Part shown: positions 27,891-45,163 of the stretch, piece after piece
Layout: each line of letters opens with the position of its first letter
Numbering within the stretch: the stretch's first letter is position 1
Origin: Pelagomonas calceolata
Taxonomy: Eukaryota
Direction: 5' to 3'
DNA length: 64,000 nt
Assembly (NCBI GenBank): GCA_918797485.1
Contig: CAKKNE010000001.1
Coordinates: 5,518,001 to 5,582,000, forward strand
Translations under genes and position numbers: made by a program
Notes under the pieces: model-generated
The model's input: only the letters and a program-made list of their open reading frames with translations
What the model was told of the DNA's origin: nothing
Database searches by the model: none

Positions 27891-30539
27891 TTACAAGTTA
27901 ATCTCGATCGCCGCGGGGAACGCGGACGAGTCATTGGATGACAGCACCTCCCCGACGACCGCCGCGGAGGCGTCGCCGCCCGCGCGTAGAGCCGCGACGC
28001 AGGCCGCGGCCCGATCGACGGGCACCGCCGCGAGGAGCCCGCCGGCGGTCTGCGGGTCGTAGAGCAGCTCGTACGCCGCACCTGCTTCGATGCCTTCAGA
28101 GTGGTTCGCCACGGCGCGCCGCGCTCTTAAATTTTCCGGGTGTAAAGAGGACACAACACCCATCGAGGCCAGCCGCCGCGCACCTTGTAGCATGGGCACG
28201 TCATTCAAATCGATACGCACGCGCGCCCCATTTGACCCGCGGCACAACTCAGCTAAATGTCCAATCAATCCAAAACCTGTCACATCGGTACACGCGAGGC
28301 ACCCGAACCGCCGTAAGGTAGCCGCGGCATGAGCGTTCGACCGGCACATCCCCTGCAAAGCTTCGGCGACGTCAGACGCGTCAGCTAAGGCGCGCATGTC
28401 GCCGGCGAAGACGACGCCCGTGCCTAAGGGTTTCGTGAGTATCAGAGCGTCTCCCTGTTGGAGATTGCCCTTGGCCAGGACCTCATCTATGGAACCGTTT
28501 ATGGCAAATCCAAGAGCGAGTTCACTCCCTTCGCACGTGTGGCCTCCCACTAGCGAACAACCAGCTTCATCTAGAGCTTTTCGTGCCCCAGCCATCATCT
28601 GCCTCAATGAATCTTCGGTCTGTCGTTCCCCCCCATACGGCACGACGCATAGCGCGAGGGCGGAAGCGGGCTTCGCACCCATGGCGTCGCAATCCGACAA
28701 AGCATGGTTCGCCGCGACCTGGCCGAAGACGTAGGCGTCTCCTATGAATGATCTAAAAAAGTCGACGGTGTGCACGAGTCGCGTGTCGTCGTAGGCGACG
28801 ACGGCGCCGTCGTCGGGGGCATCGAGTCCGACCTCCACCACACATCTATCCGACGAGGGCACGTCCGGCAAGGACGACAAGGCCCTGGTCAACGTGTTCG
28901 AACCAACCTTGGCGCCGCAGCCGCCGCAGCGCATCGGCGTCTTGCGGAGGACGTCGAGGGCGTTCGCGCGAGAAGCAATTGCATCCTCGACATCCTCCTC
29001 CTCATCTAGTGAAGGCAAGCCACCGGTGTACTGCCACATCCACTTGCGGTCGATCCAGTCCTTCAATCGATACAACCATTCACCCTCCAAAGCTAAATCT
29101 CCTCGAGAAGCCACACAAGTCCCATCACCAAGACCGACTAAAGCCAACAGTCGCGTCTGCGGAACATGCTCCACGAACTCCTCTCCCCTAAGGTCGGCCA
29201 CGAGGTTCTGGTACAAAGCCATCCCCGCCATCACCGCGAAGACGCCCGCCTTTGGTCTCGGATGCCCGTCAACTGTACTACAGTCGCCGGCCGCGTAGAC
29301 TCTCTGTGGAATGTCGTTCTGCAGACACTGGAGTTTGAGGTTCGTCCTGAGGAAGCCTCTCTCATCACAATCCAAGCCGCTCCTTGATAGGAATTCAGGC
29401 GCGGCCGCCTGCGTGCACCACGCGCACTCGTCAAAAGGTATCGACACAGTGCGGCCTTCATGGCGACACGTGAGGACCTTCTCGCCATTATCTGTCGACG
29501 TCTCGAGGGCCTCATGCGACAGTAAGACGCGGATGCCCTTTCGCCGCACGGCTTCGGTCAATAAACGCCTCACTCCGACAGCGTGGCCCTGGAGCAGTTC
29601 CGACGACCTTGCGACCAAAGTAGCGGACAGGCACGTTAATGACCGTCCTCGTCGTCGCAACTCCGCAGAGACTCGCGCGACCATGGCTAATATAAGTTCG
29701 ACACCCCCCGCACCGCCGCCCACGACGACCAACCGGAAGCTCGCATCGTCGTCGAGCCTCGATAACAGCGCGTCCCACTTTTGAGCGAAGGTCGCGATCG
29801 GCTTGACTGGAGTTACATACGCAGCCGGCTTCGACGGCGCGATGCCGACGTTTATTGAGCATACATCGTACGGTAGAGGTGGGCGACCGTCCTTGAGGTG
29901 GAGCAATTGTGCATCACTGTCAATATGCGTCACCTCGCCGGCTATGAGTCGAGCCCGTGCCACTCGAGCGAGCTTGTTCAGGTCGATGTGGGCCTCTCGT
30001 CGCGAGTAGACGCCGGCGACGTGGCCCGGGAGCATGCCCGAGTATGGGGTTTCCACGTCCCTCGTGATTAATGTGAGACGAACTCCTGGCATCGGGCACA
30101 TGCCGAGCATCCTTAAGACATGGACGTGCGCGTGGCCGCCGCCCACGAGCACCAGATCCGTGACGACCGGTTTTGCATCAGCCTCCATCCGCAAGGCCAT
30201 CATGTCCTTTGTCCCTGTGGATGAGAGTTGGCGCTGCGTCCTCACGTGCGTTAAAGGGTGCAACCGGTACACCGCATCTTTATCGTTTGGCGCTTTCGCG
30301 TCGGCCTCCGCTACTTCCAGTCTTCTTGCTCTTTCTAGAGACGCCAGGAAGAGCAGTTCTCTTAAGCGAGACCACCGCCAGTTTCCGTCCTTGGTTGCGT
30401 TTTGTGCGATAATCTGTGCGATTTCGGCCTGCACGCGCAGCCATTTCTGGAGGCTGATGCCGCGGCGCTTGGCTGCGAGTAATGCGAGGGCGCCGGCGGT
30501 TGCGGCGATCGCTGCGGCCTGTTGTTGGCTGCGTTTCAT
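27891..30539 (-). CDS. selD: Selenide, water dikinase fused to an N-terminal FAD-dependent pyridine nucleotide-disulfide oxidoreductase domain
   Basis: LVLVGGGHAH, YSGMLPG and GGGAGGVE (oxidoreductase). MRCGGCGAKVG, DDGAV, TVDFF, LVGGHT, LILTKPLGTG, TDVTGFGLIGH and DPQTAGGLL (SelD). Confidence 0.95.
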   Translation of the reverse strand: MKRSQQQAAAIAATAGALALLAAKRRGISLQKWLRVQAEIAQIIAQNATKDGNWRWSRLRELLFLASLERARRLEVAEADAKAPNDKDAVYRLHPLTHVRTQRQLSSTGTKDMMALRMEADAKPVVTDLVLVGGGHAHVHVLRMLGMCPMPGVRLTLITRDVETPYSGMLPGHVAGVYSRREAHIDLNKLARVARARLIAGEVTHIDSDAQLLHLKDGRPPLPYDVCSINVGIAPSKPAAYVTPVKPIATFAQKWDALLSRLDDDASFRLVVVGGGAGGVELILAMVARVSAELRRRGRSLTCLSATLVARSSELLQGHAVGVRRLLTEAVRRKGIRVLLSHEALETSTDNGEKVLTCRHEGRTVSIPFDECAWCTQAAAPEFLSRSGLDCDERGFLRTNLKLQCLQNDIPQRVYAAGDCSTVDGHPRPKAGVFAVMAGMALYQNLVADLRGEEFVEHVPQTRLLALVGLGDGTCVASRGDLALEGEWLYRLKDWIDRKWMWQYTGGLPSLDEEEDVEDAIASRANALDVLRKTPMRCGGCGAKVGSNTLTRALSSLPDVPSSDRCVVEVGLDAPDDGAVVAYDDTRLVHTVDFFRSFIGDAYVFGQVAANHALSDCDAMGAKPASALALCVVPYGGERQTEDSLRQMMAGARKALDEAGCSLVGGHTCEGSELALGFAINGSIDEVLAKGNLQQGDALILTKPLGTGVVFAGDMRALADASDVAEALQGMCRSNAHAAATLRRFGCLACTDVTGFGLIGHLAELCRGSNGARVRIDLNDVPMLQGARRLASMGVVSSLHPENLRARRAVANHSEGIEAGAAYELLYDPQTAGGLLAAVPVDRAAACVAALRAGGDASAAVVGEVLSSNDSSAFPAAIEINL

Positions 30540-30697
30540 TTTGCTTCAGAGAGCACTCCTTTGTGCTTGCTCGGTACGGCCTCAGGTCTTGCGCAACTTT
30601 GCGTACGGCGAGTCAGGTCGACCGGTAGGTTGTACGAGCCGCTCAACGCAGCGATAGGGCCGCGCTTCGGCCGCCGTGCCGTCTGAGTCCATGGGTT

Positions 30698-31023: not shown

Positions 31024-33055
31024 ATGAACAAGCTCCTCTGGGCGCTCTTCGCCGCCGCGGCGGCCTTCGCCCCGGCCCCGGCGCCGCGCGCCGCGCGGCC
31101 CGTGCTCAAGGCGGTCAACAACGGCCGCGGCGTCGCGCAGAAGCTGCGGAGGTCAGGCGTCCGCCTTCAAGCGAAGGCAGAACCCCCGCGCGCCGCCGTC
31201 GTCGCGCAGGCCGCGGCGGCCGCCGTCGAGGACGCCGAACCGACGTGGTTCGACACGTACACCAAGGTCTCCGGCGCCTTGACCAACTTATTTCCGGTCT
31301 GGACGGTCGTCTTCACGTTGTGGGCCCTCAAGGACCCGTCGGCCTTCGCCTGGCTGACCACTAAATACTTCACGGCGGGCCTAGCGATTCTCATGCTGAG
31401 TATGGGTATTACGCTGGCCCCGAAGGACTTCCAAAGAGTGGCGACGCGGCCCAATGCGGTGTTATTGAACTTCGCGCTGTGCTACGGTACCGCGGCCAGC
31501 GTCCTATATTCATAAAGGGGGTGTAGCTCAGTGGCAGAGCGTCCGCTTTGCATGCGGAAAGCCCAGGGTTCAAACCCCTGCTCCTCCACACACACAAAAA
31601 CAACTCCGTGGCGCAATGGACAGCGTATCAGACTTCGAATCTGGGGGTTGCGGGTTCGAGTCCCGTCGGAGTTGTTTGCGTTCGCTCGACGGCGCGACGC
31701 CGCCGCCGCGACGCACCACGATCTTTCGTGGCGCGCCTGCTCGACGGCGTCACGCTGTCGCCGCGACGCACCACACCACACAAAATCTGGACGGACTGGA
31801 AATCTGAAGGCTCCGGGTTCGACTCCCGGGTCGGTCTACCGCGGAATTGAACTCAAAGCGAGATAGTGTGGCCGAGTGGTTAAGGCGGTAGACTTGAAAT
31901 CTACTCCCGCAAGGGTCGCAGGATCGATTCCTACAAAATCGATGCGCGTTCGAACCCTGTCACTATCGCGCACGTTGATGATGTGGCCGAGTGGTCTAAG
32001 CTCCTGGGAGCGACCAGAGGCGCTGGTTTTAGGCACCAGTCTTCGGGCGTGGGTTCGAACCCCACCATCATCACTTGAGTTCCATGCCGCACGTTCGTAT
32101 CCGTGGCCGAGTTGGTCTAAGGCGTTGGATTTAAGCCCCAATCTCTCCGGAGGCGTGGGTTCGAACCCCACCGGATGCACACATTTGACCGATGACGGTT
32201 TCGCCAATCAGATGCCAGTCCTGAGAGTTAATCGTGTGTCGGACACGAGGCTGACGGTACACTCTCGCAGGCATGATGCCGGCGCTCGGCCTGACCCTGG
32301 GCAAGATGTTCGCGCTAGATCCGGCTTTAGTGGCAGGGATGGTCCTCGTCGGCTCGATCAACGGCGGCCAGGCGTCGAATCTCTGCACGTTCATTGCGAA
32401 CGGGAACGTGGCCCTCTCGGTGCTCATGACGACGGCAACCACCATTGGAGCTATCTTCATGACTCCCCTATTGTGCAAGACCTTTCTGGGGACGGTCGTG
32501 CCCGTCGACGCCGCGGGCATTGTCGTCTCTACTCTACAGGTCGTCCTCGCGCCCATCTTAGTAGGCATGACGATGAACGCCAAGTTCCCGAAAGTCGTGA
32601 AGAAGATCACTCCTGTGACACCCGTCATAGGCATGGTCTCTACCTGTCTGCTGGTGGCCGCGGCTGTCGGGCAGGTCGCCGAGCCGATCCTGGCGGCTGG
32701 CCTCAACCTGCAATTACCGGTAATGCTCCTCCACTTGGTCGGCGGCATCGTCGGCTACTGGGGCGCTCGGGCTCTCGGCTTCGGCGAGACGTCGTCGAGA
32801 ACGATGGCCATCGAGACCTCGATGAAGAGCTCGGCCTTCGGCTTTTTACTAGCGAAGCTCCACTTCGGCGCCTTCGCCGCCCGCGTGCCTTCCGCGGTGT
32901 CCGTGGTCTGGATGGCGCTGACGGGCTCGTCGATGGCCGTCGCGTGGCGCTTCATGCCGGTCAAGCCGGTCAAGTTTGATAGAAAAGTCAAGGAGCGCTT
33001 CGAGTCCGTGGATCTCCTCACGCGGGCGAAGAAGCTCTTCGGCAAGGAGAAGTAG
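31024..33055 (+). CDS. BASS2: Plastid bile acid:sodium symporter family transporter (BASS1/2-like); exons 31024-31486 and 32271-33055
   Basis: AAAFAP presequence; LTNLFPVW, MLSMGITL, GGQASNLCTFIANGNVALSVLMT and RTMAIE. GT-AG intron 31487-32270 joins ALCYG|MMPALG in frame. Confidence 0.88.
31517..31588 (+). tRNA. trnA-UGC: tRNA-Ala(UGC), inside the BASS2 intron
   Basis: GGGGGTGTAGCTCAGTGG...CCGCTTTGCATGCGG...GGTTCAAACCC...CTCCTCCA with the G3:U70 identity pair. Confidence 0.95.
31602..31674 (+). tRNA. trnR-UCG: tRNA-Arg(UCG), inside the BASS2 intron
   Basis: AACTCCG/CGGAGTT acceptor stem, TCAGA-CT TCG AA-TCTGG anticodon arm, GCGGG-TTCGAGT-CCCGT T arm. Confidence 0.95.
31684..31774. repeat. 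Two imperfect 36-bp direct repeats within the tRNA cluster
   Basis: GCTCGACGGCG..ACGC...CGCCGCGACGCACCAC at 31684-31719 and 31739-31774. Confidence 0.8.
31791..31837 (+). pseudogene. Orphan 3' portion of a tRNA (anticodon-like arm, T arm, acceptor 3' strand) with no adjacent 5' half
   Basis: CGGA-CTGGAAA-TCTG, AAGGCT, CCGGG-TTCGACT-CCCGG, GTCGGTC. No D arm or matching acceptor 5' strand seen. Confidence 0.6.
31862..31968 (+). tRNA. trnS-UGA: tRNA-Ser(UGA) with a 26-nt non-canonical intron (31923-31948) at T-arm position 53/54
   Basis: GATAGTG/CACTATC acceptor, GTAGA-CT TGA AA-TCTAC, variable arm CCC-GCAA-GGG. Removing the insert restores GCAGG-TTCGAAC-CCTGT. Confidence 0.92.
31977..32073 (+). 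tRNA. trnL-UAG: tRNA-Leu(UAG) with a 19-nt non-canonical intron (31999-32017) in the D loop (20/21 region)
   Basis: GATGATG/CATCATC acceptor, CTGGT-TT TAG GC-ACCAG. Removing the insert restores GCCGAGTGGTCTAAGGC. Confidence 0.92.
32097..32179 (+). tRNA. trnL-UAA: tRNA-Leu(UAA), inside the BASS2 intron
   Basis: GTATCCG/CGGATGC acceptor, GCCGAGTTGGTCTAAGGC D arm, TT TAA GC loop (one A-C mismatch in the stem), long variable arm, GTGGG-TTCGAAC-CCCAC. Confidence 0.9.
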
Positions 33056-38141: not shown

Positions 38142-39260
38142 TTAGAGAACTACGTCTCGCGCTGCCAGCTTCGCCCGCGCTTCTTCCATCCCGCCCTGGA
38201 CCCTTCGGGCCTCAGGGTGCGATTTGCCAAATACGCGCTTATACGTCCTTGCGACACATTCGAGCGTCGTCACGGCCTCGCGGAGATCATCGAGCGTGGC
38301 GTCGGTGTCCAAGTAAAGTGCCCGCGCGTAATTGAAGCGCATCTTGAGTGTGAGTTCATGACCCTCGCCGAGGACGCGCCGCGCCACGGGCATCATTTTT
38401 ATTAACAGTGATTTGGCTTCTTGGAAGCGCTCTAGTTTCACAAGGGACATCGCGTAGTTGTTGGCTGCCATGATAGTTCTCTGATGTTCCTCGCAGTGGA
38501 GCTTCAAATGTCCGGAGTATACGTCTCGCCGCATCCGCAGGGCCTCTTCAAATCGTCCAAGCGCTCCATACGTGTTCGCAAGATTGTTCTGCGCGTCGAG
38601 TATGCTAACCTCTATTCCGCCACTGCGCCGTATCGTAGCTAACATGGCCTCTCTCACGGGCAATGCCTCCTCGTGGTGTTTTGCATCGTGTAAACCGTTC
38701 CCAAGCAGGTTCATCGCCAAGCACCGAACCGAGTCCTCTGGCCGCCCCACGTACGTCTTCCAGCACGCCCACCCGAGCGCGCATGCCACGACGCCATGGT
38801 AATACTGCTGGCACAGGCCGCAAAAATCCCACCGCATCCACCTCTCAATCCGCGCCTTCTCGCCCAAATTGTTCTCCTCGGCCTCGTCCATCAAAATCTT
38901 TGCCTGCTCCGCCAGACACGACACGTGCGCGAAACCCGCCGTCCCGCGGCACGCACACCCGCGCACGAGGCCCTCCTTTGTTTTCCAGTGGAGCGCCTGC
39001 GTGCAAATGAAGCACGTCTGGCCCTTCGTGTCCTCGGCGCACGCCTCGACGGCCTCCGCGACGGCCTCCTTGTATTTTTTGTCGGCGTGGTATTGTTCTG
39101 CGTTGCCGCCGCGGTGTATTTTCTTACACATCTGCTTGTGGCCGCGGCGCCAGTGGTCATGCTGGCAAGTTTTGTTACAATATCTTGTATGACACCTTAT
39201 GCATCGCGGCGCGTTGTGGGCCAGTGGGGCGGCGCAGGCGGCGCAATTTGTGAGGATCAT
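38142..39260 (-). CDS. MYND zinc finger + RINGv-like + TPR protein
   Basis: CAAC..C..C..YC...CQ..HW..GH...C; CFIC...CACRGTAGFAHVSCL; kinesin-light-chain-type TPRs (NNLANTY, NNYAMSL). Confidence 0.85.
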   Translation of the reverse strand: MILTNCAACAAPLAHNAPRCIRCHTRYCNKTCQHDHWRRGHKQMCKKIHRGGNAEQYHADKKYKEAVAEAVEACAEDTKGQTCFICTQALHWKTKEGLVRGCACRGTAGFAHVSCLAEQAKILMDEAEENNLGEKARIERWMRWDFCGLCQQYYHGVVACALGWACWKTYVGRPEDSVRCLAMNLLGNGLHDAKHHEEALPVREAMLATIRRSGGIEVSILDAQNNLANTYGALGRFEEALRMRRDVYSGHLKLHCEEHQRTIMAANNYAMSLVKLERFQEAKSLLIKMMPVARRVLGEGHELTLKMRFNYARALYLDTDATLDDLREAVTTLECVARTYKRVFGKSHPEARRVQGGMEEARAKLAARDVVL

Positions 39261-39324
39261 TTTGCGTTGGCGGGGCCGTTGGCGCGATCGCGTGCGGTGG
39301 ATTGATATGTTTTGTTTTTGCCTT

Positions 39325-39348
39325 CCTAGTGTCTTTACAGCCGCTAGC
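39325..39348 (+). promoter_or_regulatory. CTAG-bounded intergenic motif, copy 11
   Basis: CCTAGTGTCTTTACAGCCGCTAGC, between divergent genes. Confidence 0.6.
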
Positions 39349-39551
39349 CAGCGAAAAATTAATAAACGCGCAGCTGCAAACGAGGCCCAAGCGGCCCAAA
39401 TCTATCGCGCTCACGGCTAAAAGCTGGGCGAATAGTCACCAGACGCTATAGCCTCGCTGCTGCGACGACGTCGACGCGGCTCGCAACACTGCTTAGCGCC
39501 GGCAACCAGGCCTGAGCTCTCACAGAGCGTCACCGGAGCACGTACGACAAG

Positions 39552-43786: not shown

Positions 43787-45049
43787 TTACGCGTTTTCAA
43801 AATCGCTCGTTTCTGATATATACGAAGTGGTCGTCGCCGCCGTGTCGGCGTCCTCCTCCGAGTCGGCCGAGTACTCGTACTTACCGTCGTAATGGTACGC
43901 CAAACGGGTCTCCGGCGTGAGATCATCGATACTCCAGTCGAGCTGCTCGTCACGTACTTGCCACAGAAGGTCCCACAAGCTCTCGGTCATGACATGGTCC
44001 TCGCCATGAACGCGGATCGATGTCTCGACCAACTCCTCGAGGATCTCCAGGGCCTTGCGCAGGTCCTCGCGGTAGTCGTCATAGCCGTAGAAGTGGAAAT
44101 CGTGGAGGGTCATCGCGTACAATTCCTTCAAGTGGAATTCATCAACGTCGTCCCCGACCTTCTGCAAGTCATATAAATTGCTCAATAGCTCCTTGGCCTC
44201 GTGCAAATGCCTGTGGTGTACGAGATCCGCTGCTAGTTTCCCGGCAGCCAATAAGGTCGATCTGTGCGAATTTCCATAAAATTGTCCCTTCTCGCAATAA
44301 ATCTCGCGTGAGGTGGCGATAGCCGCATCAGTCCGGCCGAGTTTCTCGTAGCACTCTTTCAGATTATTCAGGACGTCTATGACTCCTTCTTGATTAACAG
44401 GGAACTCCGTACGAAGCTTCGCCAACTGTGACTGGTGCACGAGAAGTCCTTCTTCCCACCGCTCATCTTTCATCATACTCGTTGCGAGACGATTCAGTGC
44501 AACGCGCCCAAATACATTGTCGCAGTACGTCTTCCAGCACGCCCATCCAAGCGCGTGCGCAACGACGCCGCGGTACTCTTGCTCGCACAGGCTACACGTA
44601 GACCACCGGTCCCATCTCGCCTGATAGACCTTGTCATCCAAATTGTTCTCCACCGCCTCCGCGACCAAAATCTTCGCCTGCTCCGCCAAGCACGACACGT
44701 GGGCAAAGCCCGCCGTCCCGCGGCACGCGCACATGCGCACGAGGCCCTCATTTGTGCGCTGAAAGACGCCCTTCGTGCATATGTAGCACGTCTGACCTTT
44801 CGCGTCCTCGGCGCACTTCTCGACCGCGACCGCGACGGCCTCCTTATATTTTTTGTTGGCGTGGTATCGTTCCGCGTCGCCGCCGCGGTGTATTTTCTTA
44901 CAGATCTGCTTGTGGCCGCGGCGCCAGTGGTCCTGCTGGCAGGTGGCATCGCAATATCTGGATCGGCATCGCACGCATCGTGGCGCGTCGTGGGCCAGTG
45001 GGGCGGCGCAGGCGGCGCAGTTTGTGAGTAGGTACGCAGACGGCGCCAT
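43787..45049 (-). CDS. MYND zinc finger + RINGv-like + helical-repeat protein (paralog of 38142-39260)
   Basis: N-terminal LTNCAACAAPLAH...LGWACWKTY closely matches the paralog; the C-terminus diverges. Confidence 0.85.
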   Translation of the reverse strand: MAPSAYLLTNCAACAAPLAHDAPRCVRCRSRYCDATCQQDHWRRGHKQICKKIHRGGDAERYHANKKYKEAVAVAVEKCAEDAKGQTCYICTKGVFQRTNEGLVRMCACRGTAGFAHVSCLAEQAKILVAEAVENNLDDKVYQARWDRWSTCSLCEQEYRGVVAHALGWACWKTYCDNVFGRVALNRLATSMMKDERWEEGLLVHQSQLAKLRTEFPVNQEGVIDVLNNLKECYEKLGRTDAAIATSREIYCEKGQFYGNSHRSTLLAAGKLAADLVHHRHLHEAKELLSNLYDLQKVGDDVDEFHLKELYAMTLHDFHFYGYDDYREDLRKALEILEELVETSIRVHGEDHVMTESLWDLLWQVRDEQLDWSIDDLTPETRLAYHYDGKYEYSADSEEDADTAATTTSYISETSDFENA

Positions 45050-45163
45050 CGGTGCTACTATCTTCGCGCGCGCGATAGGTTTTGTTCGGGTGACAAAAAC
45101 GGGTTTCCAGTACGGGGTAGAGGGGCTGCTCAATAAGCGACTCTCTCTCCCACACTTACGCGC

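What the first reader, a model, noticed from the sequence alone, without database searches (positions are those of the whole stretch)
31862..31968. tRNA-Ser(UGA) with an archaeal-type bulge-helix intron in the T arm (53/54)
Seen in sequence: a 26-nt insert (31923-31948, ATCGATTCCTACAAAATCGATGCGCG) splits an otherwise perfect tRNA. The junctions fold as a 4-bp central helix CGCA/TGCG, 3-nt bulges GGA and CGT, and a 6-bp inner helix TCGATT/AATCGA. Cutting after the second nucleotide of each bulge (GG^A, CG^T), which is the tRNA splicing endonuclease rule, regenerates GCAGG-TTCGAAC exactly. The outer helix is unpaired, so this is a relaxed BHB. Established: most eukaryotic tRNA introns lie at 37/38, while BHB introns elsewhere are typical of archaea and the red alga Cyanidioschyzon merolae. 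Inference: this stramenopile has a structure-recognising, broad-specificity TSEN and tRNA genes that default eukaryotic scans would miss or call pseudogenes.
Basis: partly seen in the sequence, partly recalled or inferred. Interest (0 to 1): 0.92.

Follow-up and report, generated by a model that had tools for sequence, protein, structure and literature searches.

The report
Archaeal-style introns in alga's intron-nested tRNAs
A marine pelagophyte alga has a serine tRNA gene split in its T arm by a 26-base insert whose archaeal-type paired pattern is kept in related copies, so it is likely cut out by a shape-reading enzyme, and the gene lies in a row of tRNA genes inside the intron of a protein-coding gene.

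Summary
Observation confirmed. Removing 31923-31948 gives a complete tRNA-Ser(UGA). The junction fits a relaxed bulge-helix-bulge (HBh') at 53/54; 1 of 1,000,000 shuffles matched it. All 26 copies examined (window plus 25 of 28 metagenome loci; 14 distinct) keep the geometry, with compensatory changes in the inner helix and nearly invariant exons. The neighbour tRNA-Leu(UAG) has a D-loop insert of the same design in 25 of 25 copies. Leu(UAA) occurs both with such an insert and as the exact predicted product. Splicing itself is not shown: no spliced read was found, but the libraries held precursors only, and folding programs prefer another register. New context: the array lies inside a 784-nt spliceosomal intron of a BASS transporter gene, confirmed by RNA reads; similar arrays appear to sit in introns of other genes. 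Ectopic BHB introns are known from archaea and red algae, including 53/54 in C. merolae. Seven literature searches found none from a stramenopile nucleus. This scan noted similar introns earlier in C. merolae and giant viruses. The enzyme is untested. New variant of a known kind; interest 0.63.

The parts
31862..31922 (+). tRNA-Ser(UGA) 5' exon (positions 1-53, long variable arm)
   Evidence: 2 of 81 exon columns vary among 14 distinct copies, both in the variable arm
31923..31948 (+). 26-nt insert at 53/54, predicted HBh' tRNA intron; inner helix 31924-31929/31937-31942; 31943-31946 pairs with exon 31917-31920
   Evidence: 17 of 29 insert columns vary, 3 inner pairs change on both sides
31949..31968 (+). 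tRNA-Ser(UGA) 3' exon (T loop, T stem, acceptor strand, G73)
31977..32073 (+). tRNA-Leu(UAG) gene with a D-loop insert
   Evidence: Rfam 53.3 bits with an unmatched D-loop insert; ARAGORN calls Leu(tag) only after excision
31999..32017 (+). 19-nt D-loop insert of Leu(UAG), predicted HBh' intron (central GGTC/GACC, bulges TA^A and AG^A, 4-bp inner helix)
   Evidence: 25 of 25 copies carry an insert, 24 keep 4 of 4 central pairs; 165 of 300,000 shuffles match
32097..32179 (+). tRNA-Leu(UAA), intronless here; 5 other copies carry a D-loop HBh' insert whose predicted removal gives this form
31517..31588 (+). tRNA-Ala(UGC), first gene of the array
31602..31674 (+). tRNA-Arg(UCG)
31797..31836 (+). 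conserved tRNA-Trp-like 3' half just upstream of Ser; role unexplained
   Evidence: matched in 24 of 26 arrays; four T-stem types, all paired
32187..32245 (+). decayed tRNA-Trp(CCA) copy at the place where other arrays have an intact one
31487..32270 (+). 784-nt GT-AG spliceosomal intron that holds the whole array; its two ends pair with each other
   Evidence: junction reads 132, 100, 77, 62 in four runs of one sample; end pairing 0 of 300 shuffles as strong
31024..31486 (+). host gene exon 1, BASS family transporter
   Evidence: spliced frame open, 415 aa; 97% identical to two full-length database proteins
32271..33055 (+). host gene exon 2
   Evidence: PF01758, E 1.9e-29

Best explanation
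The 26-base insert splits a nuclear tRNA-Ser(UGA) gene of a pelagophyte alga at position 53/54 and is likely a true tRNA intron that a shape-reading tRNA splicing endonuclease would cut after the second base of each bulge. Steps: (1) shown: the array is transcribed on the + strand as unspliced precursor and the surrounding 784-nt intron is spliced from the BASS mRNA; (2) inferred: single pre-tRNAs are released by RNase P and RNase Z, probably from the host intron RNA, because T-run terminators are mostly absent; (3) inferred: exon bases 48-51 pair with the intron's 3' end to form the relaxed HBh' motif, which the enzyme would have to capture from a competing fold; (4) inferred: cleavage and ligation restore the T stem and T loop; (5) inferred: the same activity removes the D-loop inserts of Leu(UAG) and Leu(UAA).
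For: Geometry beyond chance. 26 of 26 Ser copies, 14 distinct, keep CGCA/TGCG, GG^A and CG^T and a 5-6 bp inner helix although the search pattern left the insert free. 99.7% of cells paired, 3 pairs with changes on both sides, 0 of 500 shuffles reach the covariation score. Exons vary at 2 of 81 columns, inserts at 17 of 29. One rule explains three different genes; in Leu(UAG) the inner helix is replaced wholesale and the two bulge bases vary while GACC is fixed; 8 intronless Leu(UAA) copies equal the product predicted for the 5 insert-bearing ones. Reads of one cultured organism show the paired change C31925T with G31941A (18 and 21 reads) and G31948T (22 of 117 reads), which breaks the rival register but not the BHB. 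Precedent at the same position with RT-PCR: C. merolae tRNA-Ile(UAU) intron 3 (PMC3728597, passages).
Against: No spliced read or contig: none among 160 reads of X21 or the contigs of three metatranscriptomes, none listed in four polyA runs, whose indel table was cut by 13 rows. ViennaRNA and RNAalifold prefer a slid register. The four central pairs never vary, so covariation does not test them. The copies come from close relatives (2 of 96, 3 of 108 and 5 of 60 bases differ in matched host exons) and are not independent; gene conversion could also keep exons alike. No whole genome was held, so a separate intronless Ser(UGA) gene is not excluded. The endonuclease genes were not examined.
Confidence: 0.85

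Rival explanations
1. Insertion pseudogene carried passively as cargo of a repeated, introner-like intron; serine UCA codons are read by a gene elsewhere.
For: Arrays are multicopy and lie in introns with shared 5' ends and paired termini; array members can decay (Trp copy in the window); no spliced read; a review notes that D- and T-arm insertions in one of many copies are usually pseudogenes (PMC4090602, passage).
Against: Every copy seen has the insert; exons stay nearly invariant while inserts change with pairing kept; three genes share one exact geometry.
Confidence: 0.07
2. The insert is never removed: the RNA works unspliced as a tRNA-like structural or processing element with an extended hairpin in the slid register.
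For: The slid register is the predicted minimum and is also fully conserved; only unspliced RNA was seen; a second conserved tRNA-like fragment lies just upstream.
Against: Does not explain why excision at the BHB rule restores an exact T stem and loop, nor the Leu(UAA) pairs with and without insert; the G31948T variant breaks this register.
Confidence: 0.05
3. The insert is spliced, but not through the BHB register, for example by another nuclease as suspected for the very short nucleomorph introns.
For: HBh' is 3.8 kcal/mol above the minimum; Guillardia nucleomorph introns mostly cannot form a BHB (PMC3728597, passage).
Against: The 4-bp plus 2/1 and 2/1 spacing is exact in three genes.
Confidence: 0.03

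Closest known systems
[quoted passage not shown] 2013, PMC3728597; passages read)
   Same: Short inserts in D and T arms; relaxed HBh' motifs occur; tRNA-Ile(UAU) intron 3 (22 nt) lies at 53/54.
   Different: Different supergroup. [quoted passage not shown] Here the genes are multicopy, arrayed inside spliceosomal introns, mostly lack T-runs, and splicing is not shown.
Non-canonical archaeal tRNA introns (Crenarchaeota and others; PMC4090602, passages read)
   Same: 53/54 and 20/21 are listed positions; HBh' sites are accepted.
   Different: Eukaryotic nuclear gene. None of 17 pattern hits in 185,579 prokaryote genomes was a Ser(UGA) with such an insert; the pattern was tailored to this gene, so this is no survey of archaea.
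Atypical introns of Chondrus crispus and of the Guillardia theta nucleomorph (PMC13578239, section 9 and passages read)
   Same: Non-37/38 tRNA introns in algae.
   Different: Those belong to red algae or a red-algal remnant nucleus; this is the host nucleus of a stramenopile.
Introner elements of pelagophytes (bioRxiv 10.1101/2021.10.25.465678, passages read)
   Same: GT donor, AG acceptor, paired termini, related introns in unrelated genes.
   Different: Described peak length about 210 bp and no tRNA mentioned (0 occurrences of 'trna' in the listing); the arrays here fill introns of up to about 800 nt. Not compared with their consensus.

Membership tests
BHB-type (endonuclease-spliced) tRNA intron | Removal restores a canonical tRNA | tested here: met
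BHB-type (endonuclease-spliced) tRNA intron | 4-bp central helix with cut sites after the second base of each 3-nt bulge | tested here: met
   26 of 26 copies by sequence
BHB-type (endonuclease-spliced) tRNA intron | The motif is the fold actually adopted | tested here: inconclusive
   Predicted minimum is a slid register, 3.8 kcal/mol lower; no probing possible
BHB-type (endonuclease-spliced) tRNA intron | Intron-side helix h' kept by compensatory change | tested here: met
   3 of 6 pairs change on both sides, 98.8% of cells paired
Strict hBHBh' motif | Exon-side helix h directly next to the second bulge | tested here: not met
   0 adjacent pairs in all 14 distinct Ser copies; a 5-bp helix can close only after a 7-nt bulge. 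Hence relaxed HBh'
BHB-type (endonuclease-spliced) tRNA intron | Spliced product exists in vivo | tested here: inconclusive
   0 spliced reads, but no pile-up of molecule ends at any intronless tRNA either
BHB-type (endonuclease-spliced) tRNA intron | Cleavage by the tRNA splicing endonuclease; subunit make-up | not testable with these tools
   No genome held; no bench assay
Canonical eukaryotic 37/38 intron | Position one base 3' of the anticodon | tested here: not met
   Anticodon arm is uninterrupted; insert is at 53/54
Spliceosomal intron (host) | GT-AG ends, removed from mRNA, frame restored | tested here: met
   for the window; inferred only for the other loci
Introner element (host intron) | Terminal inverted repeats | tested here: inconclusive
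   Ends pair better than shuffles in 7 of 10 introns (11 or fewer of 300); 2 of the 3 others had mis-called acceptors
Introner element (host intron) | Target-site duplication and presence/absence polymorphism | not tested
   Not examined

The most novel reading that the evidence does not exclude
Pelagophytes make part of their tRNA set from arrays carried inside mobile, introner-type spliceosomal introns: RNA polymerase II transcribes the host gene, the spliceosome releases the array, RNase P and Z cut out the tRNAs, and an archaeal-style endonuclease removes BHB introns from their D and T arms. tRNA supply would then be tied to host-gene expression and would spread by intron transposition.
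Probability: 0.35. Interest if true: 0.87.

Novelty: new variant of a known kind. Interest (0 to 1): 0.63.

Why it matters
It would extend shape-defined tRNA introns from archaea and red algae to a stramenopile host nucleus. A 2023 review (PMC10485636, section 6) leaves open whether the simpler (alpha-beta)2 endonucleases of non-animal, non-fungal eukaryotes splice non-canonical introns; a cultured pelagophyte with three such substrates and a natural intronless control makes that testable. It also shows tRNA genes that ARAGORN misses, and an arrangement, tRNA arrays nested in mRNA introns of several genes, that my searches did not find described.

Tried and rejected
No whole genome was held, so the genome-wide census was impossible. 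Viral origin or sharing: 0 hits for two Ser patterns in viral contigs. Prokaryote relatives: 17 hits, none a Ser(UGA) with an insert. Three of 28 metagenome loci were dropped before counting as incidental matches: L014 and L023 (anticodon-loop introns), L028 (intronless). Two script errors were corrected: the Leu shuffle threshold (redone) and a mis-set outer helix (redone). Automatic host-intron ends are wrong for some loci (L007, L009, L013, L020, second L025 array), so host introns outside the window are only inferred; L025 appears chimeric (BASS upstream, cyclophilin downstream). Pfam named only 2 of 7 flanking exon pieces. A permuted tRNA-Trp made of the upstream 3' half and the downstream Trp gene was considered and set aside: by inspection no register gives a BHB that yields a 7-nt anticodon loop. 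Contamination or organelle origin was rejected: flanking genes are nuclear-type and the array is joined to BASS exons.

Full report
Observation. The gene spans 31862-31968 on the + strand with a 26-nt insert at 31923-31948. ARAGORN misses it by default and mis-joins it with the intron option; Rfam matches only 31862-31941. After in-silico excision the sequence has a 7-bp acceptor stem, a 5-bp anticodon stem with UGA, a long variable arm and a 5-bp T stem with a 7-nt loop; by standard numbering (my knowledge) the insert lies at 53/54. Exon bases 31917-31920 pair with 31943-31946, and 31924-31929 with 31937-31942. One of 1,000,000 shuffles of the insert reproduced both helices, and 0 of 300,000 in a repeat. 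No exon-side helix abuts the second bulge, so the motif is the relaxed HBh' type.

A result against. ViennaRNA gives the central helix a pairing probability of 0.0, with or without the other arms enforced. For the 50-nt domain the minimum (-16.9 kcal/mol) is a register slid by two bases, and HBh' closed by the same outer helix is -13.1. RNAalifold on 14 sequences picks the slid register as well. Both registers use invariant columns, so covariation cannot choose between them. One natural variant, G31948T in 22 of 117 reads, breaks the slid register and not the BHB. In C. merolae a motif with a calculated energy of +1.15 kcal/mol is still processed (PMC3728597, passage).

Relatives. A metagenome scan with the insert left free (10-40 nt) returned 28 loci; 3 were incidental and dropped. 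With the window that makes 26 copies and 14 distinct sequences. All keep the central helix, both bulges and an inner helix of 5 or 6 pairs, with inserts of 25-29 nt. On the 14-row alignment 99.7% of cells pair; three inner pairs change on both sides; 0 of 500 shuffles reach the covariation score and 10 of 500 reach the count of such pairs. Exons vary at 2 of 81 columns, inserts at 17 of 29. Limits: the pattern cannot see intronless copies, many loci are redundant, and the lineages are close (2 of 96, 3 of 108, 5 of 60 bases differ in matched host exons).

Same rule in two more genes. The next gene, Leu(UAG) at 31977-32073, has a 19-nt D-loop insert. All 25 copies found carry one; 24 keep 4 of 4 central pairs, the inner helix is rebuilt from different sequences, and the last two insert bases vary freely. 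Leu(UAA) is intronless in 8 copies, the window's among them, and carries a 20-25 nt HBh' insert in 5; removal by the same rule gives the intronless form. This is the strongest indirect support for the register. ARAGORN called 0 Ser(tga) and 0 Leu(tag) in the 25 loci, with or without its intron option.

Context. The array lies in an intron, 31487-32270, of a BASS transporter gene: the spliced frame is open for 415 residues, is 97% identical to two database proteins, and 132, 100, 77 and 62 reads in four runs of one sample skip exactly these 784 bases. Named relatives place the host among pelagophytes: Aureococcus 79% (BASS) and 90.7% (complex I 51-kDa subunit) identity. A Pelagomonas-like species is my inference from 62% G+C and few introns; it is not established. 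In other loci the arrays follow a similar GT motif and precede a pyrimidine-rich CAG, flanked by a cyclophilin exon (Pfam), an MFS-like exon (weak) and other open frames; these host introns are inferred. Only 13 of 146 tRNA copies have TTTT within 25 nt downstream. Intron ends pair better than shuffles in 7 of 10 cases, which recalls the introners described for P. calceolata. The A and B boxes remain largely readable in the genes, so polymerase III is not excluded.

Expression. In polyA reads the array is covered almost only in the host gene's direction, at depth 17-91 over the bin holding the Ser insert, with several paralogous insert variants. No read skipped the insert: 160 reads of X21 at depth about 100, and 17, 5 and 2 contigs of three metatranscriptomes. 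No pile-up of molecule ends marked the intronless tRNAs either, so mature tRNA was apparently not captured. The reads show unspliced precursors and no intronless Ser(UGA) paralogue among them. They neither show nor exclude splicing.

Mechanism. Most likely (0.85) the insert is a tRNA intron excised by an endonuclease that reads local shape. Shown: sequence geometry, its conservation, transcription, host-intron splicing. Inferred: release of single pre-tRNAs, formation of HBh', cleavage, ligation. Rivals: pseudogene cargo (0.07), unspliced functional RNA (0.05), non-BHB excision (0.03).

Comparison. C. merolae has 42 introns in 27 nuclear tRNA genes, one at 53/54 in tRNA-Ile(UAU) (PMC3728597, passages); archaea have 53/54 and HBh' sites (PMC4090602, passages). 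A 2026 review section names C. merolae and Chondrus for non-canonical positions, Ostreococcus for permuted genes, and elsewhere nucleomorphs; it names no stramenopile in the parts I read (PMC13578239, section 9 and passages). A 2023 review proposes that eukaryotes outside Amorphea have (alpha-beta)2 enzymes that may splice such introns, and notes that Xenopus enzyme cuts a BHB placed in an mRNA (PMC10485636, section 6 and passages); so the alga need not have an unusual enzyme. tRNAscan-SE 2.0 describes its non-canonical search for archaeal mode (PMC8450103, passages). Searches listed no report of such introns, or of intron-nested tRNA arrays, in pelagophytes; the library lacks most subscription papers, and no supplements were read. 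Earlier notes of this scan record similar introns in C. merolae and giant viruses, none in this genome, and no true look-alike of this stretch. The Ser design was not found in viral contigs or prokaryote genomes.

Verdict. Real feature, very likely a functional relaxed-BHB intron; the intron type and position are known, the lineage and the nested array context appear new. Interest 0.63.

Noticed in passing
window 31487-32270; L002, L007, L012, L015, L017, L024 and others: tRNA arrays (Ala UGC, Arg UCG/UCU, Ser UGA, Leu UAG/UAA, Trp CCA) lie in the sense direction inside introns; the cyclophilin gene appears to hold arrays in several successive introns. Nearly all anticodons have U34.
   Followed up: partly
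window 31797-31836: A tRNA-Trp-like 3' half precedes Ser in 24 of 26 arrays, with four fully paired T-stem types and a leader complementary to the Trp anticodon arm. No BHB register makes it a permuted gene; role unexplained.
   Followed up: partly
   Followed up: yes
L004, L005, L020, L022, L025: tRNA-Leu(UAA) with a D-loop HBh' insert; in L005, L020 and L025 beside an intronless copy in the same array.
   Followed up: yes
window 32187-32245: Decayed tRNA-Trp copy, also in L006, where other arrays have an intact gene.
   Followed up: no
window 38142-39401 and 43787-45163: Two related MYND-finger, RINGv and TPR genes.
   Followed up: no
window 27891-30545: One frame fuses a pyridine nucleotide-disulphide oxidoreductase domain to AIRS and AIRS_C domains; by recall this resembles a selenophosphate synthetase fusion.
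   Followed up: no
window 17541 and 36744: Motifs like the host intron's 5' end occur elsewhere in the window without tRNA genes.
   Followed up: no
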